DNA from: Bacillota bacterium
GTDB taxonomy: Bacteria; Bacillota; SHA-98; Ch115; JABLXJ01
Direction: 5' to 3'
NCBI GenBank assembly: GCA_012839815.1
Contig: DUMQ01000124.1
Coordinates: 5,933-69,932, forward strand
Length of the DNA: 64,000 nucleotides
Both the position numbers and the translations under genes were made by a program. The notes beneath the pieces were generated by a model. That model was not told the DNA's origin. It worked only from the letters and a program-made list of their open reading frames with translations, and did no database searches. Shown here piece after piece: positions 3,424-15,379 of the stretch. Numbering within the stretch: the stretch's first letter is position 1; the number at the start of each line of letters is the position of its first letter.

Positions 3424-4467
3424 CTACCTGTCGCGAACCAGGACCCGGTCTGCGATGTCCTCCAGGCAGGCCCTTGAGGGCCCCTCGGGCATCTCAGCGA
3501 GGCAGGCTTTGGCCGCCTCCACGTGGTGCCTGGCCTTGCGGCGGGCATACTCCAGTGCGCCGCTCGAACTAACCCAGTCGCATATGGTCTTAACATCGTC
3601 CCGAGACGGCCGGCGTCCCGCCAGCATCCTCCTTATATCCGCCGAAAACCTTGCATCTCGCAGTATGTGGAGGATAGGGAGAGTCAGGATGCCAGATGAT
3701 AGATCGAGCCCGGCCGGCTTGCCGGTGACCCTCTCCTCGCCGGTGAAGTCGAGCAGGTCATCTGTTATCTGAAATGCGTAACCCAGTTCAAGCCCGTACC
3801 GCATCATGGCCCCTGCCTCTCTTTTGGATGCCCGCCCGATAACGGCACCGGCGTAACACGAAGCTGCCATGAGGTGGGCCGTCTTTTTGCGGATTTGCTC
3901 CATATAATCGGCCTCGGTAAGGTCGCAGTTAAAGGCCTGACACGCCTGCTCGATCTCTCCCTCGCACATGACCGTGATCGCCTCGGCCATTAGCCTCACG
4001 AGACCAAGCCGGTTCCTGTGGTCCATCCGGCTCAGGATGGTTAGAGCACGGGCAAATAGAAAATCGCCTGCCAGGACCGATGTGCGATTCCCCCATAGGG
4101 AGTTCACAGTTGCCCTGCCCCTCCTGGTGCGCGCGTTGTCTATAATGTCATCGTGGATCAGGGAGGCCATGTGGATCAACTCGGTAGCAACAGCTACGTC
4201 TATAGCTCCCTCGGGATCATGCCGGAAGGAGCGTGCACACAAGAGCACAAGCAAAGGCCTGATGCGCTTGCCTCCCCCGAAGATGAGGTAGTTGCACACG
4301 TCGCCGATGAGTTGGGAATGGGACGATGTCACCTCCTGGAGCCGCTCCTCGACTCGCTTCAGGTCGGCGGCGACACCCGACGCGGGAAGCTCTAGCGCCT
4401 CGAAGGTCCCTGGTCTCTCAATTGCCTGGATGCCCACTCTCAAAGATCCCCCTAACCATGGTCGCAA
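3424..4467 (-). CDS. Polyprenyl diphosphate synthase (heptaprenyl diphosphate synthase component II-like)
   Basis: GGKRIRP, first Asp-rich motif LIHDDIID..RRGR, KKTA, second motif FQITDDLLD. Confidence 0.9.
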   Translation of the reverse strand: MRPWLGGSLRVGIQAIERPGTFEALELPASGVAADLKRVEERLQEVTSSHSQLIGDVCNYLIFGGGKRIRPLLVLLCARSFRHDPEGAIDVAVATELIHMASLIHDDIIDNARTRRGRATVNSLWGNRTSVLAGDFLFARALTILSRMDHRNRLGLVRLMAEAITVMCEGEIEQACQAFNCDLTEADYMEQIRKKTAHLMAASCYAGAVIGRASKREAGAMMRYGLELGYAFQITDDLLDFTGEERVTGKPAGLDLSSGILTLPILHILRDARFSADIRRMLAGRRPSRDDVKTICDWVSSSGALEYARRKARHHVEAAKACLAEMPEGPSRACLEDIADRVLVRDR

Positions 4468-4596
4468 GATTAAGCCACAGACCTATAAGAGATATATGGC
4501 CTGCGGGCTCTACATTAGTGTGACCATTTTCCGCCGCGGGCAACCAGAGAAATACCACACACAACCACGCACAGGCGACGCCGCGCTCAGGCCTTA

Positions 4597-5601
4597 TTAC
4601 CTCGAAACACTCATCTGGTAGTCGTATACCATGCGCGATATCTCAGCTATATTGCCAAAACCCTGGTCTATATCGTAGATTCCCTTTGAAAGCACAACAA
4701 GAATATAGGGCCGCTGGGCGAATACTATACCGGCATCGTTGGCCACGCCCCAAACATCGCCCTCTTTGTGAGCCACCGTTACATCCTCCGGGAGTTTCCC
4801 CGGCAGGCCCACATGATATATGGGATGTGACATGTCATCGAGGAGACGCGCTCCAAGCTCTGGATGTCTCTTACTAAAGTCAAGCACGGCCTCCATATAA
4901 GCACCCATGTCGGCGGCCGTGGTGATGTTTGCGCCACCCGGGAATACCGTCCTGCCGCCGACCCTCTCCATGAACAGCTTTATGTTTTCCTTGCCGAGGT
5001 AACGCATGAGCATCCTATTAGCAACGTTATCACTTATGGTGATCGCCAGGTTGGCGAGCACCCTAAGCGAATACCGGTCGCCCTCGCGCGCCGTAAACTG
5101 CAATATTCCAGCTCCTTCCTGGTAATCGGTGTCCTTGTGATACGTGACACGATCATCCCAATCCAGCTTGCCCTGGGCTACGAGTTCATTCAGGTACAGG
5201 ACGACGGGGACCTTAACCGTGCTCGCGGCCGTTATCGGCTCCCCGGCGTTGATCTCCATAGTTGCCCCGGACTCGAGGTCTTTAAGGTAGACGCCGTAGG
5301 TCGCCCCGGTGGTCGCGATGTAGTCAATAAGCTGCTCCCGCAACGGCCCGTAATCAGGGAGGCTGGATGAGCTCCCGCGCCTGACGCCTTCCGTGGATCC
5401 AGGTCCGCTACCGGTATTCACGCCCTCACCCCCACCCTCCTTTGCCTCTGGAGTTACCTCTTGCGGGGTCCCACTTGCGTCAAAGGGCCAACCGCCCTGC
5501 CCGTGTCCCCCGGGCCCGCGCCCGAGGGCCTGAAACGAGAATGCTATAATCACGGCCGCCAAAATGACCGCCGTTATTATCCTAAATATTCTGCAAGGCA
5601 T
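4597..5601 (-). CDS. Exported class A beta-lactamase-like serine hydrolase
   Basis: N-terminal hydrophobic signal, Gly-rich linker, SxxK (ASTVK), SDN and HKEG (KTG-like) motifs. Confidence 0.8.
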   Translation of the reverse strand: MPCRIFRIITAVILAAVIIAFSFQALGRGPGGHGQGGWPFDASGTPQEVTPEAKEGGGEGVNTGSGPGSTEGVRRGSSSSLPDYGPLREQLIDYIATTGATYGVYLKDLESGATMEINAGEPITAASTVKVPVVLYLNELVAQGKLDWDDRVTYHKDTDYQEGAGILQFTAREGDRYSLRVLANLAITISDNVANRMLMRYLGKENIKLFMERVGGRTVFPGGANITTAADMGAYMEAVLDFSKRHPELGARLLDDMSHPIYHVGLPGKLPEDVTVAHKEGDVWGVANDAGIVFAQRPYILVVLSKGIYDIDQGFGNIAEISRMVYDYQMSVSR

Positions 5602-5872
5602 GATTTAATTCTCTCCCCTCCCAAAGTCTATACGAAAAATATTATATAGGAGACAATGCATCCCTGCATCAAGCAAATCTTGACACTTTTTCTCACTTGC
5701 CCTCATATCTTGAGAAGGATTATTTACATATCCGTCGAAGAAGAATTGCGGCAAAGCAATGTGGGTAAGACGCCAGGAAGCCGACGGAACGTGCAGAGTG
5801 CATGCAAGGCATAAGTAAGAAGGGATAGAACGGGTCAGCACCATATAATAGGATTGAGGGGGTTTGCCAGAC

Positions 5873-6130
5873 ATGGCGGGATTTCTATCCGGGCTTTTCG
5901 GGGGCAAAAAGGGCACAAAAAAATATGAGGACATATTCACGACCGCAAAGAAGATGGGCCAGAGTATCGAGTATGCTTTTAGGCAGGCCGTAGACGCCTC
6001 CGTGGCGGATAAGGTATTCAAAGACAAGAGCGAGGCTTGCGACAAGCTCCTGGAGGTTCTACTGCCAAAGGTTGATTCGGAACTACACCCTGCGCTCCGG
6101 AAGGCGTGCGAGCGCATAAAAGAGCTTTGA
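5873..6130 (+). CDS. Small hypothetical protein (85 aa)
   Basis: GAGGGGG about 10 nt before ATG 5873. Fills the gap, converging on the permease gene. Begins MAGFLSGLFGGKK. Confidence 0.6.
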   Translation: MAGFLSGLFGGKKGTKKYEDIFTTAKKMGQSIEYAFRQAVDASVADKVFKDKSEACDKLLEVLLPKVDSELHPALRKACERIKEL

Positions 6131-6149
6131 GGATCGTGTGCCTGGCCTA

Positions 6150-7154
6150 TCACACCGCCCCGCGTTCCCGCAGCCTGTCAAGGGCCACGGCCAGCAGGAG
6201 CACCGCGCCGCGCGCCACGTCCTGGTAAAAGGATGAGACGTTGAGCAGGACGAGGCCGTTATTGAGCGTGCCCAGTATGAGGGTGCCGAGGAGCGTACCC
6301 CATATGCTCCCTTTACCGCCCGAGAGGCTCGTGCCCCCCAGTATCACCGCGGCGATCACGGTGAGGGCCACACCCGTTGCCGCCTGGGGGGCGCTTGCTC
6401 CAAGCATCGAGGTGAGTAGCACCCCACTCCCAGCGGCAGCCGCGCCGGAAATCACGTAAACCAGCATAGTGATAAGGTCTATGTTGATGCCTGAGAGCCT
6501 CGCAGCCTCTGCATTGCCGCCGATCGCATAGATGGACCTGCCAAACGGCATATAGTTGAGCACAATAAACGCCAGCGCAAAGACAACGGCCATCATCAGG
6601 AGCGGAAAGGGAATCCCCGCAACGTCGCCCATGGCGATAAACCTGAACCCCGGGTGGAGGAGGCTCGATGTCAGCCCTCCGGTAAGGACGAAGGCGATTC
6701 CGCGCACTATCGACATGCTGCCGAGCGTCGTGATAAACGCGTTTATCTTGAGTCTGGTCACGCAGAGCCCGTTAGCCGCCCCGACCAGGGTCCCGAGGAT
6801 TATACTGACTATGACTCCGGTCCATATTCCTAAACCGGCCCTGTAGATAATGCCTATTATCACGCCCGAGATGGCGGCCACCGCTTCCACAGATAGATCG
6901 AGGCCCCCGGCAATGAGCACGAGGGTCGACCCCGCCGCCATTATCCCTATATAGGCCATGTTGGTCCCGATGTTCAGGAAGTTTCGTACATTAAGAAAAT
7001 ACGGGGAAACTACAGAAAAGAATATGATCATGCCCGCGTAAAAGGCAAGCAAGATCGCCGTTCCCGACCACTTTAACACCCCGGGAGTTCCCCGCACGGC
7101 CTGGGTGGTCTCGCGGATAGCCGCGTCGCCGGGTCTTCCGGTCCCAATCATCAT
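6150..7154 (-). CDS. Monosaccharide ABC transporter permease (RbsC-like)
   Basis: Multi-TM protein with GGLDLSV, FITTLG, GRSIYAIGGNAEAARLSGI and IAAVILGGTSLSGGKGS. Confidence 0.93.
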   Translation of the reverse strand: MMIGTGRPGDAAIRETTQAVRGTPGVLKWSGTAILLAFYAGMIIFFSVVSPYFLNVRNFLNIGTNMAYIGIMAAGSTLVLIAGGLDLSVEAVAAISGVIIGIIYRAGLGIWTGVIVSIILGTLVGAANGLCVTRLKINAFITTLGSMSIVRGIAFVLTGGLTSSLLHPGFRFIAMGDVAGIPFPLLMMAVVFALAFIVLNYMPFGRSIYAIGGNAEAARLSGINIDLITMLVYVISGAAAAGSGVLLTSMLGASAPQAATGVALTVIAAVILGGTSLSGGKGSIWGTLLGTLILGTLNNGLVLLNVSSFYQDVARGAVLLLAVALDRLRERGAV

Positions 7155-8716
7155 GACACTCCCCCCATGGCGCAGTAAAGCACCCTCTCCTGCGTTGCAT
7201 CTTCCCCGCTAAACTCGGCCATGACCCTGCCCTTGTAAAGCACGAGAATCCTGTTGCTGATCCTGAGGACCTCAGGTAGGTCCGAGGACAGGACCACGAT
7301 GGCCATCCCCTCTTCTGCGAGCCTCTTCAAGATCCCGTAGATGTCCTCCCTCGCCCCCACGTCCACGCCTCGCGTCGGCTCATCGATGACAAGCACCTTC
7401 ATGTGTCGGGCAAGCCACTTCGCCAGGAGCACCTTTTGCTGGTTGCCGCCGCTCAGGAATCTGGCCGGCTGGAAGAGGCTCCTGCACCTTATGCCGAGCC
7501 CATTCACCCACCTGCTTGCAACGGCGATCTTCTCGTCACGCCTCAAGAAGCCACCCCTCGTCAGCTTATCCATCGATGGCAGGGTGATGTTTTCCTCCAC
7601 GCTCATCTCCAATATGAGCCCCTCCGTCTTGCGATCGGCCGGGACAAGGCCGATCCCATGGATCTTGGCCTCGCCCGGGGATTTGAAGTGAACCGGCACC
7701 CCGTCCACGGCGATCGTCCCGCCATCCACCGGCACGGCACCAACCAGGGCTTTTGCCAGATAATCCGTGCCCGAACCCATGAGGCCAAAAAACGCCACTA
7801 CCTCGCCCGCCCTAACCTGGAATGATACATAATCGAGGCACCCTCGCCGCGACAGGTTCTCCACCGACAATATTGCGGGCCCGGCCGGACGGGCTGGAGC
7901 AAGGTGGCCCTGGACCAGGCTTCGCCCGACCATTGCACGCACGAGGTCCTGGTGCGTAAATCTATTGCGCTCAAATATCCCGGCATTCCTGCCGTCGCGG
8001 AGGACCATAACCCTATCCGCGATCCTGAATACCTCCTCGAGCCGGTGGGAGATATATATTATCCCGACGCCTTTGCTCTTGAGCCCCTCCACAACCTCGA
8101 ACAGCCTCTTTATTTCCCGGTCGGTAAGAGCCGCAGTCGGCTCATCCATTATGAGGATCTTCGCCTCGGCCGAGAGCGCCCTGGCTATCTCCACGATCTG
8201 CCGCTCGGCGACTGTAAGGCGCCCCACCTCCACATCGGGGTCGATCCTCACATCAAGCATATTCAGGACGCGCATAGCCTCCCGCCGCATCCCCTCGTAA
8301 TCCACTATAGGCACCCCGGAGCCCCTAGGCTTACGAAGCGGGAGCCTCCCGAGAAGTATATTCTCCGCCACCGATAACTCGGAGACTGTATTGGGCTCCT
8401 GATAAATAGCCCGGATCCCGCGAGCTATCGCATCCCGCGGGGTCTCCATCTCTACTCTCATTCCGTCGATGATGATCGTACCGGCGTCCTTCGTGTAATC
8501 GCCATTTAGAATCTTAATTAGCGTAGACTTGCCCGCCCCATTTTGCCCAAGCAGCGCCACGACCTCTCCGCGCCTCAGTGTGAGCTCCACATCATCGAGG
8601 ACCTTGACGCCCGAGAACGATTTGGTAATCCCATGCATCTCCAGGACATACGGTGAATGCTTCTCTTTTGCGCTAGCGTCTGCACCCCTCGCGGCCACGC
8701 CCATCGCCACCACCAT
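7151..8716 (-). CDS. Monosaccharide ABC transporter ATP-binding protein (two-domain, RbsA-like)
   Basis: GQNGAGKST, MDEPT, SHRLEE in domain 1. LSGGNQQK and IDEPTRGVDVGA in domain 2. Start set at ATG 8716 after a GGAGGAGAAGGGG RBS-like tract (ORF track starts at 8842). Confidence 0.93.
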   Translation of the reverse strand: MVVAMGVAARGADASAKEKHSPYVLEMHGITKSFSGVKVLDDVELTLRRGEVVALLGQNGAGKSTLIKILNGDYTKDAGTIIIDGMRVEMETPRDAIARGIRAIYQEPNTVSELSVAENILLGRLPLRKPRGSGVPIVDYEGMRREAMRVLNMLDVRIDPDVEVGRLTVAERQIVEIARALSAEAKILIMDEPTAALTDREIKRLFEVVEGLKSKGVGIIYISHRLEEVFRIADRVMVLRDGRNAGIFERNRFTHQDLVRAMVGRSLVQGHLAPARPAGPAILSVENLSRRGCLDYVSFQVRAGEVVAFFGLMGSGTDYLAKALVGAVPVDGGTIAVDGVPVHFKSPGEAKIHGIGLVPADRKTEGLILEMSVEENITLPSMDKLTRGGFLRRDEKIAVASRWVNGLGIRCRSLFQPARFLSGGNQQKVLLAKWLARHMKVLVIDEPTRGVDVGAREDIYGILKRLAEEGMAIVVLSSDLPEVLRISNRILVLYKGRVMAEFSGEDATQERVLYCAMGGVS

Positions 8717-8934
8717 TTCCCCTTCTCCTCCGGATATGCCGGGAGAAGGTCCCGGCACCATTAGCGCTTGCTGTTCTCTGGACAGCGGCAGGCTCGCCTC
8801 GCCGTGGGTCACCTCGCTGGGATGCGCGGCGAGCCTACCCATCCTTCTACCTCTTCCCCCGCTTTGCCCTCCGCTTTTCCTTTACCTTTTCGCTATTCAC
8901 CTATTCTATCCGCTTATCTATATTACCTACCCAC

Positions 8935-10002
8935 CTATTCACCAGGGTAGTACACCTTTACGTTGTCACGTGTAATGAAAACGTGATCCACAAACACCTC
9001 GCGAGGCACCTTCTCACCCGCAAGCATCTTGAGCGCCGTCGGGATGACCTTGTTGCCGTAGCGATCGGGGAAATGAGCAGTAGCCCCGATCAGACTCCCG
9101 TTTCTGATGCCTTCGCGGCCTAGTGGATCGGCCCCGAGCGCCACTATGAGGGCGTCAGATTTGCGCCGCGCGAAATCAAGGGCGGCAACTATTCCCATGG
9201 CAACCTCGTCGTTTATGCCAGTCCCCATGATAGGCGTCCCCTGGGGGATCCTCGCGAGAATATCAACCATCTGCTGCCGCGAGTAGTCGAGAGTATTCTT
9301 GCTATCAAATCGGATTATCTGCTTCTCGGGGAATCCCTTCAATATCTCGCGGAACCCGTCAACCACGCCCTGGATGCGCCTGGCCGGTATTTCACCGGAT
9401 TGCGGGAGCTCGCCAAGGACCAGGACCCCCTTTGGCGCTTTATCGCCCCACTTTTTGAGCGCGGCCTCTGCGAGGGCCTTGCCGGCGAGATAGCCGTCAA
9501 GATGGTTGTTTACGCCGAAGAATACCGCTCCGGGCATTGGTATATCGATGGCTATAACGGGGATCTTGGCCTTGTTGAACCGCTCCATGATCATGGGACC
9601 AAAGTTGACGTCGGTCTGGAATTCGATGACGAAATCGACGTTACGCGTCACAAAGTTGTCGGCGTTGGCCAGCGCTGTCGCACCGTCGAGCCTGTTGTCG
9701 GCGACGATGAGATCGATCCCTGCCGCCTCGCAATTCTTTTTGATGCTGTTTTCAACATCTATGCAAAAAGGTATATCGCGCTGGAGGTTGGCGAAGCCGA
9801 ATACATAACTCTTGCCGTTTCTCGGCGGCCTTACCTTCATGGCTTCGGATACCATCTTCTGGAGTTCCTGTTTGGAGAGCATCCCCATTATTTCGGCGCC
9901 CGCCATGAATTCAGAACCAACCATTGTAAAGAGGAACACCCCCAGGACGAACGCAACGATTAACGTTTTCAGCCTCCTAGACATGCCCGTTTCCCCCCTC
10001 AT
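8935..10002 (-). CDS. Sugar ABC transporter substrate-binding protein (RbsB-like)
   Basis: N-terminal signal peptide. KVIPVIAIDIP, GINDEVAMG and VALGAD motifs of type I periplasmic binding proteins. Lies directly upstream of the ATPase and permease genes. Confidence 0.88.
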   Translation of the reverse strand: MRGETGMSRRLKTLIVAFVLGVFLFTMVGSEFMAGAEIMGMLSKQELQKMVSEAMKVRPPRNGKSYVFGFANLQRDIPFCIDVENSIKKNCEAAGIDLIVADNRLDGATALANADNFVTRNVDFVIEFQTDVNFGPMIMERFNKAKIPVIAIDIPMPGAVFFGVNNHLDGYLAGKALAEAALKKWGDKAPKGVLVLGELPQSGEIPARRIQGVVDGFREILKGFPEKQIIRFDSKNTLDYSRQQMVDILARIPQGTPIMGTGINDEVAMGIVAALDFARRKSDALIVALGADPLGREGIRNGSLIGATAHFPDRYGNKVIPTALKMLAGEKVPREVFVDHVFITRDNVKVYYPGE

Positions 10003-10109: not shown

Positions 10110-11207
10110 TTACCGGAAGCTGCCATAGGTTCTGACCGTCTCCCACATCTTGAGGACATTCTCCACCTTGCAGTCGGGGTGAATCTCAGTGCTCGACCCT
10201 ACGATCAACCCACCTCCCCTCCATCCTTCGTCAATGGCTCGCTTTACAGCAGCCTCGACTTCTTCCCCGGTCCCATAGGGCAGGAGCTGGCTCACGTCAA
10301 TCCCACCCATCATGGTCAGCCTGGGATATCTCCTGCGCAGTTCGCCGATATCCATGCCTGCCACGGGTTCAACGGGATTTATGCCATCTATCCCGGATGC
10401 TACAAAATCATCCATCACCTCCATGAGATACCCATCGGAATGGTAGATAACTTTGATCCCATGACTGTGCCATGCATCCACCACCTGCTTTAACCTGGGG
10501 AAAAACTCCTTGCGGAGAAAGGCGGGGGAGAAGATCAAGGAGCCCTTGAACGCAAGGTCCGAATAGACCAGCGCTACCGGCGATAGTTCAACGTCGGCTA
10601 CGTCGTGGATCCTCCTGACTTCGAAATCCGCGAGAGCCTGGAGCCACCTGGATATAAGCTCGGGGTCCTCGGCATAGGTGTAGATGAAAAGGTCGAGTCC
10701 GGCGCGTATCCAGGCCGTATCCAGGCCAACAGGGCTTTCGGCGGGGAAGAGCACGGTATCCCCCAGCTTCTCCTGTAACGCTAGGAACTGTTCCCGGGGG
10801 CTCGCGTCGGCCTGGCCCCAGACGTTTGCCTTGCCCGCAAAGGTCCAGATATCACCGGGGTGGTAGTCCTGGAGCTCATCGATGTTGCGCCGGATATATT
10901 CCTTCAACCCCGCGCTATCCTTGAACGGCCTCTCGATGAGCCACGTCGTCCACCACTCTTGTTTGTAGACGAAACCATCCTTGTCGGCAAAGATCTTTTC
11001 TTCGGCCGGCGGGGTGACGCCCCTTGTAGCGTCAAGGTTCATGCTGATCGTCCTGCAGAGAAGGTCGAAGGCGTTCTCGCGTGTTACCTTCTCCCCTGTA
11101 CACCGCTCCAGAAGCGCTATGTTATGAATCATGTCGAAAATAGGGATCCTATCAACAGGCTTGAATTCAATGGTGTTCACTACCCTCTCCCGCGCGGTCA
11201 TCGGCAT
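10110..11207 (-). CDS. Uroporphyrinogen decarboxylase (URO-D/CIMS) fold protein of unknown function
   Basis: MTARERV..TIEFKPVDRIP N-terminus, SP.FLRKEFFP, YHSDG, GIDG.NP.EP..GMD and GGIDV..LLP.GT.EEV. Confidence 0.85.
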   Translation of the reverse strand: MPMTARERVVNTIEFKPVDRIPIFDMIHNIALLERCTGEKVTRENAFDLLCRTISMNLDATRGVTPPAEEKIFADKDGFVYKQEWWTTWLIERPFKDSAGLKEYIRRNIDELQDYHPGDIWTFAGKANVWGQADASPREQFLALQEKLGDTVLFPAESPVGLDTAWIRAGLDLFIYTYAEDPELISRWLQALADFEVRRIHDVADVELSPVALVYSDLAFKGSLIFSPAFLRKEFFPRLKQVVDAWHSHGIKVIYHSDGYLMEVMDDFVASGIDGINPVEPVAGMDIGELRRRYPRLTMMGGIDVSQLLPYGTGEEVEAAVKRAIDEGWRGGGLIVGSSTEIHPDCKVENVLKMWETVRTYGSFR

Positions 11208-11247
11208 CGATCACACGCTCCCCTCTCCCTGAGATAAAACCACACCC

Positions 11248-11284
11248 AAAATAAAGGATGCCCTCAGAAACCAAAGGCATCCTT
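11248..11284 (-). terminator. Intrinsic terminator in the leader of the UroD-like/sugar ABC operon
   Basis: Minus strand reads AAGGATGCC-TTTGGTTTCTGAG-GGCATCCTT-TATTTT: perfect 9-bp stem then a U-rich tail, about 40 nt before the start codon at 11207. Confidence 0.85.
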
Positions 11285-11320
11285 GACCTTTTCCATATCC
11301 GCACGCCAACCATGAGCGCG
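11276..11320 (-). promoter_or_regulatory. Putative ANTAR-binding dual-hairpin RNA element
   Basis: Hairpin 1 CGCGC-TC[AUGGUU]G-GCGUG and hairpin 2 GGUC[AAGGAU]GCC. Both hexaloops have A1 and G4 and are closed by C-G. Hairpin 2 overlaps the terminator 5' arm. An ANTAR regulator gene is about 200 nt away. Confidence 0.7.
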
Positions 11321-11326
11321 GGATCA

Positions 11327-11372
11327 TTTAGTAAGATTTAGTAAAAATCATCCTGAAGATTTGGTTTAGTAA
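11327..11372. repeat. Three direct copies of TTTAGTAA (candidate operator)
   Basis: Copies at 11327, 11337 and 11365 in the AT-rich region upstream of the ANTAR element. Confidence 0.6.
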
Positions 11373-11521
11373 AATTCAATATCACTCAATGTTAAACTAT
11401 ATGCTTAATTATACGACAAATATCTCACAATTCCTGCCGGCAAACTCAAACATCTTACCATTCCACGTGTCGAGCCTGCAAGTATTTTTCCCGGTCCCGG
11501 TCGACCCCGACCGAGGGCAGG

Positions 11522-12103
11522 CTAGCTCAATATCTTATCGGCCTCGATTATCTGGCGGGCCATGTCCACAAGCTTCTTGTTTTGATCGCGGCTCTTCTTC
11601 TGAAGGAGCCTCATGGCCTCCGCCTCCCCGAGCCCCAGTCTATCCATTAATATCCCCTTTGCGCGCTCGACGAGCTTTCGCGCCTCAAGGGCCTCCCTGG
11701 CGCTCCGGGCCTCGGCCGCGAGGCGCCTCTCCTCGTCGAATCTCGCCAGCGCGACCTCGATGGCCGGCCCCAGGTCATGTTCATCAACAGGCTTTACAAG
11801 ATAAGCGAATACCCCGGCATCTGCTGCCCTCTCCACAAGCTCCCTGTCTGAGTACCCGGTGAGTATGACCACCGGCGTGGGGCACCTCTCGGAGATCGCC
11901 CTTGCAGCCTCCACCCCGTCCATTCGCGGCATATTTATGTCCATTATCACCACATCGGGCCTCACCCGCTCGCACAGAGAAACCGCCTCCGCGCCGTCAG
12001 CGGCCTCGCCCACCACCTCGTAGCCGAGGCTCTCGAGCTGGGCTCTAATACCCATGGCCACAAGGGATTCATCCTCCGCGATCAAGACCCTCAACGTTCC
12101 CAT
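11522..12103 (-). CDS. REC-ANTAR response regulator (PdtaR/EutV type)
   Basis: REC domain: IAEDE, DINMP, LTG, KP. C-terminal ANTAR: RKLVERAKGILM...EAEAMRLLQKKSRDQNKKLVDMARQII. Start placed at ATG 12103. Confidence 0.93.
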   Translation of the reverse strand: MGTLRVLIAEDESLVAMGIRAQLESLGYEVVGEAADGAEAVSLCERVRPDVVIMDINMPRMDGVEAARAISERCPTPVVILTGYSDRELVERAADAGVFAYLVKPVDEHDLGPAIEVALARFDEERRLAAEARSAREALEARKLVERAKGILMDRLGLGEAEAMRLLQKKSRDQNKKLVDMARQIIEADKILS

Positions 12104-12239
12104 AATGTGCCACCCCCATCGCGCTGGCCCTTCTACATCGGACATCCGACTGATATCTGAGTATCTTTCCCCCTCCTCGTGCCACCGCTTACACGCACAT
12201 AACATTTTCGTATATCCGTGCGGGGCGCGCGAAAACGGG

Positions 12240-14174
12240 TCAGACCCTGGGGATCCTTATCGTAGCACGCGTGCCGCCCGCCGGCCCGAGCCTTTCGATA
12301 GAAAAGTGCCCCTGCAGATCCTTGGATACAAGCATGTTTACGATAGACAACCCGAGGTGCGCCGAGGTCCGGGCATCAAACTCCGCAGGCAAACCCACGC
12401 CGTCGTCGAGCACCTCGATGATAATATCCGATTCGGTTTCATCCATAGAGACATTTATAGAACCCGCATCCCGACCGGGGAAGGCGTGCTTGAAGCAGTT
12501 GATTATAAGCTCATTTACGGCCAGGGCCAGCGACGTGGCGCGCCTGTAGGTCATCATGATATCCCTTCCCTCGAGCTCGACCTGAATAGATCTCGACAGG
12601 TTCCTCCCGCTCGCTAGCTCAATAACCTTCTTTACTATCTCCCTCGCATTAACGACGCCTATATCCTTCTCATCCTTGGACAGGAGATCATGGACCGCAG
12701 CGATCGCCTTTACCCGCGCAATACTCTCTCTCAACACGGCCTCGACGGGCCTGGACTCCTTAAAGAGCATCTGGAGCGAAAGCAGGCTTACAATCGATTG
12801 CAGGTTGTTCTTGATGCGATGATGGGCTTCCTTCAAAAGGGCCGATCTTCCCATGAGCCGGGTATTTTCGATGGCGATCGCAGCCTGGCTAGCAAAGGCC
12901 GAGAGAAGCTCGATCTCTTTCTGTGAATAAAGGTGGGGGCGCCTGTAAAAGACCTCTATTGCCCCGGCTATCCTCGTCCTCACCTTGATGGGCACGCAGA
13001 TAAGGGACCTGACAGAGGGCCTGGGCTCCTTGGCGTAGACGTCCGCAAACTCGCTCGCGCCGAGATCGGATACGAAAAAAGGGGATCCCCCGGAGATGAC
13101 CCTGCCCAGCATCTCCTTCTTGACGTCAACCTCTATCTCTTCCCCGCGGTTGAACCTCACCTTATTTACAACCGCCCTCGAATCTTCGTCGATAAGCTCA
13201 ATTACGCAGGAATCTGCGTTCATGATGTTAACGGCGCGCTCGGCGAGAAAGTTTAGCACGTCCTGCAGCTCATATTCGGAAGCCAGCAACTCGCTTGTGC
13301 GCAAAATGGCCTGGATCACCTCACCGGTCTCGCGGAGTATATCCTGGTCTTGCGCCCCATGCCCTCCCCAGCTCACGGCTTCACCCGTATTTGGAATTTC
13401 TCCTATGGGGTCATCGCGCCCCATCATCAGCCGAATGACCCTTTCAGGGGCTCTCCTGGCTGCAGTGCAGGATAAGGTCGCTCTCACCTCGCCGTCCTTC
13501 AAGATGGTTATTCTATCGGCGACCTGAAAGGCCTCTTCAAGGCGGTGTGAGAAATACAGGAAGCTAGTCCCCTGGCCAGCATAGCGCCTGATGATTCTGA
13601 AAACATCTGCGGCCGCAAGCTCTCCTAAATTGTCCACAGGCTCATCCATCACCACAATGCGCGGCCCGGTCGAAAAAGCCCTCGCTATGGCCGTCAACTG
13701 CCTCTCCTCAAGGTTGAGATTCTTTACAAGTTCTTTTACATCAATACGGATTCCCAGGTTCCGGAGCAGGGCCTCTGTCGAGGCGTACAACCCGGCCCAG
13801 TACACGAAGCGCGAGCGCCCCCGGGTGGGCAGGCGGCCGAGAAAGATATTCTCTGCGACGGATAGCTGCGGGAGGAGCTGGGGGTTCTGGTAGACGAAAC
13901 TCAACCCATTTCGCTGTGCATCGCCAGGTCCCCTCAAAGTAAGGGGCCTTCCGTAAAGGTTTACCACCCCCGAGCTTAAAGGGCACACACCGGCCAGCAC
14001 GCCAACGAGGCTTGATTTGCCTGCCCCATTTTCCCCTACTATCGCATGAACCTCGCCCTCATGCAGGTCCAGGCTGACGTGGTTTAGCACGGCAAAGCCG
14101 TTGGCCCGATACGTCGTAACACCGCGCATTTCCAGTATATTACCGGCACAGGTATGAGCATAAACCTGGTTCAC
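12240..14174 (-). CDS. Histidine kinase with N-terminal ABC ATPase domain (ABC NBD-GAF-HisKA_2-HATPase fusion)
   Basis: One uninterrupted 644-aa ORF. Residues ~13-253 are an RbsA-like NBD (GENGAGKSS, YQ, VMDEP, SHRLEE). Residues ~288-440 are GAF (ICVPIKV, FASQAAIAIENTRL). Then EAHHRIKNNLQ, NELIINCFKHAF, DDGVG and LGLSIV. Confidence 0.9.
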   Translation of the reverse strand: MNQVYAHTCAGNILEMRGVTTYRANGFAVLNHVSLDLHEGEVHAIVGENGAGKSSLVGVLAGVCPLSSGVVNLYGRPLTLRGPGDAQRNGLSFVYQNPQLLPQLSVAENIFLGRLPTRGRSRFVYWAGLYASTEALLRNLGIRIDVKELVKNLNLEERQLTAIARAFSTGPRIVVMDEPVDNLGELAAADVFRIIRRYAGQGTSFLYFSHRLEEAFQVADRITILKDGEVRATLSCTAARRAPERVIRLMMGRDDPIGEIPNTGEAVSWGGHGAQDQDILRETGEVIQAILRTSELLASEYELQDVLNFLAERAVNIMNADSCVIELIDEDSRAVVNKVRFNRGEEIEVDVKKEMLGRVISGGSPFFVSDLGASEFADVYAKEPRPSVRSLICVPIKVRTRIAGAIEVFYRRPHLYSQKEIELLSAFASQAAIAIENTRLMGRSALLKEAHHRIKNNLQSIVSLLSLQMLFKESRPVEAVLRESIARVKAIAAVHDLLSKDEKDIGVVNAREIVKKVIELASGRNLSRSIQVELEGRDIMMTYRRATSLALAVNELIINCFKHAFPGRDAGSINVSMDETESDIIIEVLDDGVGLPAEFDARTSAHLGLSIVNMLVSKDLQGHFSIERLGPAGGTRATIRIPRV

Positions 14175-14386: not shown

Positions 14387-15379
14387 GTGAGACGAACGAA
14401 AGCCCTTAATAGACCGGTTATGCTTACCCTGGTAGCTCTGGCAGCCATGGTCGCTTTGGTCGTGAGCGGCGCCTACTCTACCATGCCCAGTGACGCTACC
14501 ACCGGCTCTGCAGGCTTCAGGGCCTGCCCCCTGCAGTGCGAGGTCGACAGGGAGCTCTATCTCAAGGACCCGCCGTTCCGGGGTCACGACGTAGTTGAGC
14601 TCCAGCAACGCCTCAAGCAGCTCAATATCTACAAGGGAAAGATTGATGGCATCTTTGGCAGGTCCACGGCCCAGTCCGTCAAAAAATTCCAGGCACAGGC
14701 CGGGCTTAGGCCGGACGGGGTCGTGCGAGGGGAGACATGGGATAAACTAGGCGAGGGCATCCACGTCCCGGCCAGCCAGGCCACAGTCCCACGCCCCCCT
14801 GGCAAGATCAAGCTCCTCGTAAACGTGGATGAATTGACCCTCACAGTCTACTCAGGCGACAAGCCATACAAGACATATCCCATCGCAATTGGTCAATGGA
14901 CAACGCCAACCCAGCTCGGCGAGTTCACGATAATAGACAAGGGCTACAACCCGGGCGGACCGTTCGGCACGAGGTGGCTCGGCCTCAATGTCCCCTGGGG
15001 GAGTTACGGTATCCACGGTACGAACCGGCCCTGGAGCATCGGTACGGCCGCGAGCCAGGGGTGTATCAGGATGTTTAACGAACACGTGGAGGAGATATTC
15101 GACTGGGTATCAATAGGTACAAAGGTTATCATAACCGGGCAGTATCTCGAAGAGGACCTGGTGACCGGCGTGGAACGCGAATTGAAGCCCGGTGACACGG
15201 GCAAGGATATTAGATATGTGCAATACCGCCTGCGCCAGGCGGGCTTCGACCCGGGGCCTGTCGACGGGTGGTTTGGCCCGGCGATGCAAAGCGCAGTCAG
15301 GCAGCTGCAGGATTTCTACGGGCTGCCCGCCACCGGCAAGGTAGGGTCAAATGAACTCTACGTCCTGGGCCTGCGATGA
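14387..15379 (+). CDS. L,D-transpeptidase (YkuD) with two peptidoglycan-binding domains
   Basis: PG_binding_1-like DVVELQQRLKQL...IDGIFG..T..SVKKFQ. Catalytic YGIHGT...SIG.AASQGCIRM. Second PG-binding repeat at the C-terminus. N-terminal TM segment. Confidence 0.9.
   Translation: MRRTKALNRPVMLTLVALAAMVALVVSGAYSTMPSDATTGSAGFRACPLQCEVDRELYLKDPPFRGHDVVELQQRLKQLNIYKGKIDGIFGRSTAQSVKKFQAQAGLRPDGVVRGETWDKLGEGIHVPASQATVPRPPGKIKLLVNVDELTLTVYSGDKPYKTYPIAIGQWTTPTQLGEFTIIDKGYNPGGPFGTRWLGLNVPWGSYGIHGTNRPWSIGTAASQGCIRMFNEHVEEIFDWVSIGTKVIITGQYLEEDLVTGVERELKPGDTGKDIRYVQYRLRQAGFDPGPVDGWFGPAMQSAVRQLQDFYGLPATGKVGSNELYVLGLR

What the first reader, a model, noticed from the sequence alone, without database searches (positions are those of the whole stretch)
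11248..11320. ANTAR-type dual hairpin overlapping a leader terminator identifies the likely target of the fusion-kinase system
Seen on the minus strand upstream of the UroD-like gene: hairpin 1 with loop AUGGUU, a ~14-nt linker, and hairpin 2 with loop AAGGAU. Hairpin 2 uses the nucleotides that form the 5' arm (AAGGAUGCC) of a 9-bp terminator with a UAUUUU tail, so the two structures are mutually exclusive. Known: phosphorylated ANTAR dimers bind paired hexaloops with A1/G4 and block terminator formation (eut system). Inference: sensor, regulator, cis element and regulated transporter all lie within about 8 kb. Hairpin 2 has a weak stem, so the call depends partly on context.
Basis: partly seen in the sequence, partly recalled or inferred. 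Interest (0 to 1): 0.72.

Follow-up and report, generated by a model that had tools for sequence, protein, structure and literature searches.

The report
ANTAR antitermination leader of sugar-transporter operon
A short RNA switch sits just upstream of a sugar-uptake operon: two small hairpins compete with a transcription stop signal, and the RNA-binding regulator encoded next door most likely controls it; the mechanism is already known, but this sensor, regulator, RNA and transporter module recurs in many bacteria and I found no description of it.

Summary
On the minus strand, hairpin P1 (11321-11299, loop AUGGUU), a 7-nt linker and hairpin P2 (11291-11273, loop AAGGAU) precede an intrinsic terminator (11284-11254, tail UAUUUU 11253-11248). 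The terminator's 5' arm re-uses the P2 loop and 3' arm.

P2 is better than described (6 pairs). The linker is 7 nt, not about 14.

The pattern alone is not above chance: about 0.7 such patterns occur per shuffled window. The support comes from context and conservation:
- The element lies in the 313-nt leader directly after a REC-ANTAR response regulator gene.
- I recognised the same architecture (hairpin(s) with A-N-G-G/A loops, P2 overlapped by a terminator) in all 18 other loci examined that carry a homologous kinase or the matching RR-leader-transporter context. These are from Bacilli, Clostridia, Halanaerobiales, Hydrogenispora and Petrotoga.
- P1 shows strong covariation.
- A model trained without the window returns this site as its only hit in the window.

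The interpretation (ANTAR-dependent antitermination of the downstream URO-D-like/CUT2 ABC-transporter operon) is supported by inference. There is no transcript or binding evidence. I class the element as a new member of a known kind; it belongs to a conserved module that I did not find in Rfam or in the searchable literature.

The parts
12240..14174 (-). Cytoplasmic sensor histidine kinase with an N-terminal ABC nucleotide-binding domain: ABC_tran, GAF, HisKA_2, HATPase_c (644 aa).
   Evidence: Pfam. Walker A, Q-loop, Walker B and H-loop are intact. The nucleotide-binding domain is 37% identical to the N-terminal half of the operon's own ATPase. At least 120 full-length homologues were found.
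11522..12103 (-). REC-ANTAR response regulator. The likely start is M35 of the ORF that extends to 12205.
   Evidence: Pfam Response_reg 1e-29 and ANTAR 4.6e-20. About 50% identical to the regulators of the Bacillus/Fredinandcohnia loci. Closest solved structures are Rv1626/PdtaR (1s8n, E 1.5e-49) and EutV (6wsh, E 6e-37).
11208..11521 (-). Leader (intergenic region) between the regulator gene and the URO-D-like gene. Its upstream part is AT-rich. The promoter is not assigned.
   Evidence: The consensus scan finds no sigma-70 site here. A perfect TATAAT at 11413-11408 with a poor -35 was seen by eye only.
11299..11321 (-). Hairpin P1. Loop AUGGUU at 11313-11308 (A1, G4). Eight pairs with one bulged C, or six continuous pairs closing the 7-nt loop CAUGGUU.
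   Evidence: -10.4 kcal/mol. The homologous helix covaries across 18 sequences: 89.6% of cells paired, 7 of 8 pairs changed on both sides, 0 of 500 shuffles reach this.
11292..11298 (-). Linker AUAUGGA (7 nt).
   Evidence: It lies within the 5-12 nt range of the E. faecalis eut leaders (PMC3369931).
11273..11291 (-). Hairpin P2, the antiterminator. Loop AAGGAU at 11284-11279 (A1, G4). Stem AAAGG(U)C/GCCUUU.
   Evidence: -2.4 to -3.2 kcal/mol. The core GG-Y...G-CC is invariant in 15 homologous leaders. The Petrotoga leader carries an identical 18-nt P2.
11248..11284 (-). Intrinsic terminator. The 14-pair stem spans 11284-11254, with the U-rich tail UAUUUU at 11253-11248. The 5' arm re-uses the P2 loop and P2 3' arm.
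   Evidence: -18.5 kcal/mol. A terminator that overlaps the P2 3' arm was found by script in the window and in 17 of the 18 other loci, and by eye in L100.
10110..11207 (-). First regulated gene: a URO-D-family protein, distantly MtaA/CmuA-like. A purine-rich ribosome-binding site (GGGAGAGGGGAG) lies at about 11229-11218, downstream of the terminator.
   Evidence: Pfam URO-D 2e-17. NCBIfam hits are far below their cut-offs. Sequence.
6150..10002 (-). CUT2-type ABC importer: Peripla_BP_4 binding protein (8935-10002), double-domain ATPase (7151-8842) and BPD_transp_2 permease (6150-7154).
   Evidence: Pfam. The binding protein is weakly RbsB-like. The ATPase and permease are 41-43% identical to those of the Bacillus loci.

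Best explanation
The leader at 11208-11521(-) is a transcription attenuator controlled by the adjacent REC-ANTAR regulator.

Proposed mechanism:
1. RNA polymerase first makes P1, then the weak P2, then the 3' arm of a much stronger terminator that needs the P2 loop and P2 3' arm.
2. Without the regulator the terminator wins (-18.5 against about -3 kcal/mol), and transcription stops at the U-tract near 11248, 41 nt before the URO-D-like start codon.
3. When the ABC_tran-GAF-HisKA_2 kinase phosphorylates the regulator, the ANTAR dimer binds the A-N-G-G loops of P1 and P2 and holds P2 closed. The terminator's 5' arm is then unavailable, and polymerase reads into the operon.
4. The operon comprises the URO-D-like gene, the binding protein, the ATPase and the permease, and possibly the two genes that follow them.

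Shown here: the structures, their mutual exclusivity, the gene neighbourhood, conservation of the whole arrangement in homologous loci, and covariation of P1.

Inferred from the EutV, NasR and AmiR paradigm: binding by the regulator, dependence on phosphorylation, the direction of the effect, and the inducing signal.
For: - Anatomy and energetics.
- ANTAR regulator immediately upstream. Closest solved relatives are PdtaR and EutV.
- Motif definition from PMC3369931 and the EutV-RNA structure paper PMC8934654.
- Conserved synteny of kinase, REC-ANTAR regulator, leader and CUT2 transporter: six Bacillus/Fredinandcohnia genomes, metagenome loci L011 and L060, and ten further loci.
- The same P1-linker-P2-terminator element occurs in those leaders.
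- P1 helix covariation, with slid controls at 38-51% paired against 89.6%.
- P2 core and loop positions A and G are invariant.
- Model R2, built without the window sequence, returns 11270-11324(-) as the only hit in 128 kb with filters off.
- Models R1 and R2 hit none of the 78 loci that hold ANTAR regulators but no fusion kinase.
Against: - No transcript, 3'-end or binding data exist for the window. Two metatranscriptomes of the same study hold nothing from it.
- The leave-one-out hit scores only 13 bits, E about 2.4.
- The pattern alone occurs about 0.7 times per shuffled window.
- P2 is supported by sequence conservation only, not by covariation. Its conservation could partly reflect its second role as a terminator arm.
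- In some homologues loop position 4 is A rather than G, the loop has 5 or 7 nt, or P1 is not evident (L091).
- The comparison segments for searches were chosen by eye.
- The promoter is not assigned.
Confidence: 0.8

Rival explanations
1. The hairpin and U-tract at 11284-11248 are simply the constitutive intrinsic terminator of the upstream kinase-regulator transcription unit. P1 and P2 are incidental, and the URO-D-like operon has its own, differently regulated promoter downstream or is read through at a fixed level.
For: No other terminator-like site lies between the regulator's stop codon and this hairpin. Motif-only matches are expected about 0.7 times per window. RNA contigs in a Bacillus homologue run from the regulator gene into the leader as far as P2, so the leader terminator probably also ends regulator transcripts.
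Against: P1 and P2, with the same loop letters and the same overlap with the terminator, recur in the 18 other loci examined, down to 33-47% kinase identity. P1 covaries. Only 41 nt separate the U-tract from the start codon, which leaves little room for a separate promoter. Most homologous leaders have a clear TTGAC-N17-TATAAT promoter upstream of P1, so the element lies inside the 5' UTR there (by eye).
Confidence: 0.06
2. The conserved leader is a switch, but it is not operated by the ANTAR regulator. It would be a ligand-sensing riboswitch or the target of another RNA-binding protein.
For: No binding data exist. P2 is highly conserved in sequence, as riboswitch cores are.
Against: No Rfam family matches at E up to 10 in the window leader, and the Bacillus leader gives only spurious hits far below threshold. 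The element is only about 50 nt of two simple hairpins, with no multi-helix junction or pocket. It co-occurs with the ANTAR gene wherever the regulator's position lies inside the fetched locus. Its loops fit the ANTAR A1/G4 rule. No CAT/PRD antiterminator is encoded nearby.
Confidence: 0.05
3. The ANTAR regulator does bind P1 and P2, but the output differs from classical antitermination. It could control translation or mRNA stability, as proposed for actinobacterial ANTAR RNAs, or binding could favour termination.
For: Actinobacterial ANTAR targets are reported to act on translation (abstracts of PMC8164766 and bioRxiv 10.1101/660928). The closest solved relative of the regulator is mycobacterial PdtaR.
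Against: P2 overlaps a canonical terminator with a U-tract and not the ribosome-binding site or start codon, which lie 20-40 nt further downstream. The same P2-terminator overlap is found in every locus examined. Holding P2 closed can only remove the terminator's 5' arm.
Confidence: 0.07

Closest known systems
EutV/EutW and the eut leader RNAs of Enterococcus faecalis (ANTAR antitermination; PMC3369931, PMC8934654)
   Same: A REC-ANTAR regulator paired with a histidine kinase. Two short hairpins with A1/G4 hexaloops and a linker within 5-12 nt. P2 overlaps the 5' arm of an intrinsic terminator, so the default state is termination.
   Different: The target is a sugar-type (CUT2) ABC importer operon, not ethanolamine utilisation or nitrogen metabolism. 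There is one site per locus rather than four. The family loop consensus is A-N-G-G/A with G3 invariant. The stems can be drawn either with a bulge and a hexaloop or as a continuous helix with a 7-nt loop. The sensor is a soluble kinase with a fused ABC nucleotide-binding domain, not EutW. The regulator scores higher against PdtaR than against EutV.
PdtaS/PdtaR (Rv3220c/Rv1626) of mycobacteria
   Same: A soluble GAF-containing HisKA_2 kinase paired with a REC-ANTAR regulator. The regulator matches Rv1626 (1s8n) at E 1.5e-49 over its full length.
   Different: PdtaS has GAF and PAS sensor domains and no ABC nucleotide-binding domain (from my own knowledge of PdtaS). Here the two-component genes are adjacent to a leader and transporter that they presumably control. 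The RNA here is a terminator-overlapping attenuator, whereas actinobacterial ANTAR RNAs are reported to act at translation.
NasR/nasF and AmiR/amiE leaders
   Same: An ANTAR protein binds a hexaloop hairpin upstream of a terminator and promotes read-through.
   Different: Those regulators sense the ligand directly or through a partner protein and are not phosphorylated response regulators. They control nitrate and amide metabolism.
BglG/SacY/LicT with RAT RNA (sugar-operon antitermination)
   Same: The logic is the same: a protein-stabilised antiterminator hairpin overlaps a leader terminator in front of sugar-utilisation genes, and activity is coupled to the transporter.
   Different: The RNA-binding domain is unrelated (CAT versus ANTAR). 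The RNA is a single roughly 30-nt RAT hairpin. Control is through PTS phosphorylation, not a two-component system. No CAT/PRD protein is encoded here.

Membership tests
ANTAR-target RNA (dual-hairpin antiterminator, Ramesh et al. 2012) | Two tandem hairpins, each with a stem of at least 3 pairs and a six-nucleotide terminal loop | tested here: met
   P1 has 8 pairs (one bulge) with loop AUGGUU. P2 has 6 pairs (one bulge) with loop AAGGAU. Both can alternatively be drawn as continuous helices with 7-nt loops.
ANTAR-target RNA (dual-hairpin antiterminator, Ramesh et al. 2012) | Adenine at loop position 1 and guanine at loop position 4 in both loops | tested here: met
   AUGGUU and AAGGAU. Across homologous leaders A1 and G3 are invariant, while position 4 is G in most and A in some.
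ANTAR-target RNA (dual-hairpin antiterminator, Ramesh et al. 2012) | Short linker between the hairpins (5-12 nt in the eut leaders; 3 or 14 nt abolished induction) | tested here: met
   7 nt, AUAUGGA (range). The homologues have 2-9 nt, except Petrotoga with about 25 nt.
ANTAR-target RNA (dual-hairpin antiterminator, Ramesh et al. 2012) | The 3' part of P2 overlaps the 5' arm of an intrinsic terminator | tested here: met
   Nucleotides 11284-11273 are shared. The terminator has 14 pairs and the tail UAUUUU. The same overlap occurs in the homologous loci.
ANTAR-target RNA (dual-hairpin antiterminator, Ramesh et al. 2012) | An ANTAR-domain protein is encoded in the genome, typically nearby | tested here: met
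   A REC-ANTAR gene ends 201 nt upstream of P1 (stop codon ends at 11522, P1 starts at 11321).
ANTAR-target RNA (dual-hairpin antiterminator, Ramesh et al. 2012) | Specific binding by the ANTAR protein, and regulator-dependent read-through | not testable with these tools
   This needs EMSA or SPR, in vitro transcription, or reporter fusions. No RNA-seq covers the window.
ANTAR-target RNA (dual-hairpin antiterminator, Ramesh et al. 2012) | Match to a curated covariance model | tested here: inconclusive
   No match in Rfam 15 at E up to 10. I did not find an ANTAR-target family among the matches, so this says little. My own leave-one-out model places its single hit here, but at only 13 bits.
REC-ANTAR response regulators (PdtaR/EutV type) | Receiver domain with a phospho-acceptor Asp and acidic pocket, followed by a coiled-coil linker and the three-helix ANTAR domain | tested here: met
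   Pfam Response_reg 103 bits and ANTAR 71.6 bits, both above their cut-offs. AEDE, MDINMP and KP motifs are conserved in the alignment. Full-length match to 1s8n and 6wsh.

The most novel reading that the evidence does not exclude
The element may be the output stage of an undescribed 'transporter-coupled' sensing module.

In this reading, a soluble PdtaS-like kinase carries an N-terminal domain that is a paralogue of the N-terminal nucleotide-binding domain of the CUT2 ATPase. The kinase would dock onto the permease of the very transporter it regulates, or otherwise read that transporter's or the cell's ATP state. It would then convert transport activity into ANTAR-mediated antitermination of the transporter operon.

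Three observations fit a docking or sensing role rather than ATP hydrolysis:
- The ATPase motifs are intact in the window's protein.
- Those motifs are poorly conserved across 119 family members, while the kinase motifs are about 100% conserved.
- The kinase is strictly linked to CUT2 transporters.

The leader RNA would then define a distinct, sequence-conserved subfamily of ANTAR targets (P2 core GG-Y-[N]A-N-G-R-N-N-GCC) that is specific to this module.
Probability: 0.3. Interest if true: 0.8.

Novelty: new member of a known kind. Interest (0 to 1): 0.5.

Why it matters
Characterised ANTAR systems control ethanolamine, amide and nitrogen metabolism. This leader would extend terminator-overlapping ANTAR control to carbohydrate-type ABC importers.

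It also gives a concrete cis target for a widespread family of kinases. More than 120 full-length homologues were listed, and several carry source names such as 'ribose transport system ATP-binding protein'.

The module is compact (about 8 kb) and conserved from Bacilli to Petrotoga. That makes it a tractable system for asking how an ABC nucleotide-binding domain can serve as a sensor input to a two-component system.

The alignment of leaders could seed an RNA family model for genome annotation.

Tried and rejected
- Rfam scan of the window leader and of a Bacillus leader. There were no hits for the window, and only spurious miRNA and sRNA hits far below threshold on the long AU-rich terminator of L001.
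- Motif-only statistics. The dual-hairpin-plus-terminator descriptor is not rarer than in shuffles, so I did not rest the case on it.
- Metagenome scan with an alignment of the regulators. It returned 80 loci, but 78 hold ordinary GAF-HisKA_2 kinases or none and lack the RNA element. They served only as a negative set.
- RNA evidence. Metatranscriptomes of the same biogas study contain nothing from the window. The runs X4 and X7 gave only fragments and no informative variants in the hairpins. RNA contigs for Bacillus L001 cover the regulator gene down to position 8805 (inside P2) and, separately, the body of the binding-protein gene. Contigs cannot show 3' ends, so this is inconclusive.
- MAFFT alignment of whole P1-P2 segments put several P2 hairpins one column out of register. 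I therefore analysed P1 and P2 separately on fixed-length segments.
- Promoter. The consensus scan found none in the leader, and candidates seen by eye (TATAAT at 11413-11408; TTGCAG-18-TAAGAT) are weak, so no promoter is assigned.
- Literature searches for the fusion kinase or an ANTAR-controlled sugar transporter found nothing relevant. The supplementary tables of Ramesh et al. 2012 list no such hit.
- A CAT/RAT (BglG-type) mechanism was rejected because no CAT/PRD protein is encoded nearby.

Full report
**1. What is in the sequence**

The minus strand between the stop codon of the regulator gene (11522) and the start codon of the URO-D-like gene (11207) reads as follows:
- P1: CCGCGCUC[AUGGUU]GG(C)GUGCGG, 11321-11299.
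- Linker: AUAUGGA, 11298-11292.
- P2: AAAGG(U)C[AAGGAU]GCCUUU, 11291-11273.
- Terminator: AAGGAUGCCUUUGG-UUU-CUGAGGGCAUCCUU, 11284-11254, then UAUUUU, 11253-11248.

RNAfold of 11235-11335(-) gives P1 plus the terminator as the minimum-energy fold (-34.9 kcal/mol). The z-score against dinucleotide shuffles is -3.3. The terminator scan lists the same hairpin with 14 pairs.

If only the RNA made before the terminator's 3' arm is folded, P1 and P2 both form. P2 is worth about -2.4 to -3.2 kcal/mol and the terminator -18.5 kcal/mol. The two share 11284-11273, so they exclude each other.

Three details need changing: the terminator has 14 pairs rather than 9, the linker is 7 nt rather than about 14, and P2 is a better hairpin than stated. 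Both hairpins can be drawn in two ways: a hexaloop closed by a Y-G pair with a one-nucleotide bulge below it, or a continuous helix closing a 7-nt loop (C)AUGGUU / (C)AAGGAU.

**2. Is it more than chance?**

Not from the pattern alone.
- A loose descriptor (A..G.. hexaloops, stems of at least 4 pairs, linker 3-16) matches 34 times on the two strands of the window. Only this site has an overlapping terminator.
- With a slightly laxer terminator rule, dinucleotide-preserving shuffles give 0.7 such sites per window, and half of the shuffles have at least one.

The weight comes from position and comparison. The site lies in a 313-nt leader, about 0.25% of the searched space, directly after an ANTAR gene.

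**3. Neighbourhood**

Pfam gives the following on the minus strand:
- ABC_tran-GAF-HisKA_2-HATPase_c kinase, 12240-14174.
- Response_reg-ANTAR regulator, 11522-12205 (probable start at 12103).
- The leader.
- URO-D-family protein, 10110-11207.
- Peripla_BP_4 binding protein, 8935-10002.
- ATPase with two ABC_tran domains, 7151-8842.
- BPD_transp_2 permease, 6150-7154.
- A 182-aa ORF with no family match, 5605-6153.
- A Beta-lactamase2-family protein, 4597-5601.

The last two overlap their upstream neighbours by a few bases, so they may belong to the same operon.

The regulator's best solved relatives are Rv1626/PdtaR (E 1.5e-49) and EutV (E 6e-37).

**4. Comparative evidence**

*Genomes.* A scan of species-representative genomes with the kinase found six Bacillus/Fredinandcohnia loci with full-length matches at 33-35% identity. 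There the ANTAR regulator is transcribed divergently from the kinase. It is followed by a 370-500 nt leader and a Peripla_BP_4/ABC/permease operon.

*Their leaders.* All six contain a P1 hairpin with loop A[C/U]G[G/A]CU and a 2-4 nt linker. All six also contain a P2 with the sequence GGCUAUG[G/A]GUGCC, and a long terminator whose 5' arm starts inside P2.

*Protein database.* A search returned at least 120 full-length homologues. They come from Halanaerobiales, Clostridia, Bacilli, Hydrogenispora, Paenibacillus and Petrotoga. Several carry source names such as 'ribose transport system ATP-binding protein'.

*Contexts.* Ten contexts were fetched. Nine show kinase, REC-ANTAR regulator, a 230-700 nt leader and a CUT2 transporter. 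In Petrotoga (L095) the binding-protein gene lies upstream and a transposase sits downstream of the regulator.

*Model searches.* A covariance model built from the window plus the six Bacillus-type leaders (R1) hits leaders of L060, L011, L097, L094 (twice), L098, L093, L096, L095 and L099. The Petrotoga P2 (AAAGGUCAAGGAUGCCUU) is identical to the window's over 18 nt. L092, L099 and L100 carry a variant P2 (GGYG-AWGAW-CGCC). In L091, the closest kinase homologue at 47% identity, P2 and the terminator (GGAUGCC...GGCAUCC-UUUUAUUUUU) resemble the window's, but I could not find a P1.

*Terminators.* A script found a terminator that begins within P2, at or before its 3' GCC, in the window and in 17 of the 18 other loci tested. 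L100 was missed only because I mistyped the search string; it shows the same arrangement by eye.

**5. Structure support**

- P1: on 18 fixed-length P1 segments, 89.6% of cells pair and 7 of 8 pairs show changes on both sides. The window and L092 are GC-rich where the Bacilli are AU-rich. No shuffle of 500 reaches the observed score, and sliding the partner by 1-3 columns drops pairing to 38-51%.
- P2: the three inner pairs (G-C, G-C, Y-G) never vary, and the outer pairs show only a few compensatory changes. P2 is therefore supported by conservation, not covariation.
- Loops: A at position 1 and G at position 3 are invariant. Position 4 is G in most sequences and A in some.
- Caveat: I chose the segments by eye, which favours the structure. 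The slid controls are less affected by that choice.

**6. Independent test**

Model R2 was built from 13 leaders without the window sequence. It was run over the whole window on both strands with filters off. It returned one hit, 11270-11324(-), at 13 bits and E about 2.4. The score is weak on its own, but it is the only hit and it falls exactly on the element. R1 and R2 found nothing in the 78 loci that hold ANTAR regulators without the fusion kinase. Within detection limits, this RNA form goes with the fusion-kinase module.

**7. Mechanism**

The anatomy is that of the eut, nasF and amiE leaders. Those have two A1/G4 hexaloop hairpins and a short linker, and P2 overlaps a terminator. An activated ANTAR dimer stabilises P2 so that the terminator cannot form.

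In the EutV-RNA structure a single loop base at position 3 or 4 flips out to contact the protein. That is compatible with the invariant G3 and frequent G4 seen here.

I therefore conclude, with about 0.8 confidence, that the leader terminates transcription by default and that the phosphorylated regulator causes read-through into the URO-D-like/ABC-transporter operon. Binding, phosphorylation dependence and the inducer are all inferred. The terminator probably also ends transcripts that come from the kinase-regulator genes, because no other terminator lies between them.

**8. The sensor**

- The window kinase has intact Walker A (GENGAGKSS), Q-loop, Walker B (VVMDEP) and H-loop (FSHR) motifs.
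- Its nucleotide-binding domain is 37% identical to the N-terminal half of the operon's own ATPase and 29% identical to the C-terminal half.
- Across 119 family members the kinase H-box, N-box and G1 motifs are about 100% conserved.
- In the same alignment the Walker A lysine is the commonest residue in only 57% of sequences. The Walker B aspartate and the H-loop histidine are not the commonest residues at their columns (automatic alignment, so approximate).

This suggests the domain serves as a sensing or docking module rather than an obligatory ATPase. Whether it contacts the permease is speculation (see the novel case).

**9. Transcript evidence**

There is none for the window. DNA runs place the window in a biogas-fermenter/anaerobic-digester organism. 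For Bacillus L001, RNA-seq contigs cover the regulator gene and run on to position 8805, inside P2. Separate contigs cover the binding-protein gene. This is compatible with attenuation, but contigs cannot show 3' ends.

**10. Comparison and novelty**

The element meets every sequence-testable criterion of an ANTAR target RNA. Binding is untested. No match to an ANTAR-target family came up in Rfam 15. A 2025 review lists AmiR and NasR among the characterised ANTAR antiterminators in the part of its table that I read. The tables of Ramesh et al. contain no sugar-transporter hit of this kind, and my literature searches found no description of the fusion kinase or of this leader.

I class the cis element as a new member of a known kind. 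The module it belongs to (a PdtaS-like kinase with a fused nucleotide-binding domain, a PdtaR-like regulator, this leader and a CUT2 importer) looks like an undescribed variant and is worth testing experimentally.

Noticed in passing
L003 about 9008-8986(-), with equivalents in L004-L006; L094 7665-7717; L098 about 7690-7712; L097 about 4156-4134(-): Several homologous leaders carry an extra P1-like hairpin (for example CUAUACU[CAUGUGU]GGUAUAG) 60-100 nt upstream of the P1-P2 pair, so there are three ANTAR-type loops in a row. The window's leader has no such third hairpin.
   Followed up: partly
window 12240-14174(-) and homologues P0001-P0120: The ATPase motifs of the kinase's N-terminal ABC domain are intact in the window's protein. 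Across 119 homologues they are poorly conserved (Walker A Lys about 57%; Walker B Asp and H-loop His are not the majority residues), while the histidine-kinase motifs are about 100% conserved.
   Followed up: partly
window 4597-5601(-) and 5605-6153(-): A Beta-lactamase2-family protein (Pfam E 8.5e-52, but far below the NCBIfam class A cut-off) and a 182-aa ORF with no family match follow the permease gene, overlapping their upstream neighbours by a few bases. They may be co-transcribed with the transporter. Their role in a sugar-type uptake operon is unexplained.
   Followed up: no
window 10110-11207(-): The first gene after the leader is a URO-D-family protein with only distant similarity to MtaA/CmuA methyltransferases (about 43 bits against cut-offs above 235). 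None of the homologous loci examined has such a gene in this position; there the first gene encodes the binding protein or the ATPase. The window's binding protein also has no detectable similarity to those of the Bacillus loci. The substrate here is probably different.
   Followed up: partly
window 11325-11420(-): The upstream part of the leader is strikingly AT-rich for a 57% GC window. It contains three copies of UUACUAAA within about 45 nt (11370-11326). This could be a promoter UP element or a protein-binding site. It was not analysed.
   Followed up: no
window 12104-12239(-): There is a 136-nt gap between the kinase stop codon and the probable regulator start (M35). The longer ORF from 12205 adds 34 residues that are not conserved in homologues, where the gap between kinase and regulator is only 13-90 nt.
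   Followed up: no
window 14387-15379(+): An L,D-transpeptidase (two PG_binding_1 repeats plus a YkuD domain) is encoded divergently, upstream of the kinase gene.
   Followed up: no
L095 (Petrotoga halophila), 3803-5000(-) and 8707-9699(+): In Petrotoga the P1-P2-terminator element lies about 950 nt upstream of a binding-protein gene that is divergent from the kinase. The linker is about 25 nt, and a Transposase_31 gene sits downstream of the regulator. The module appears rearranged there.
   Followed up: no
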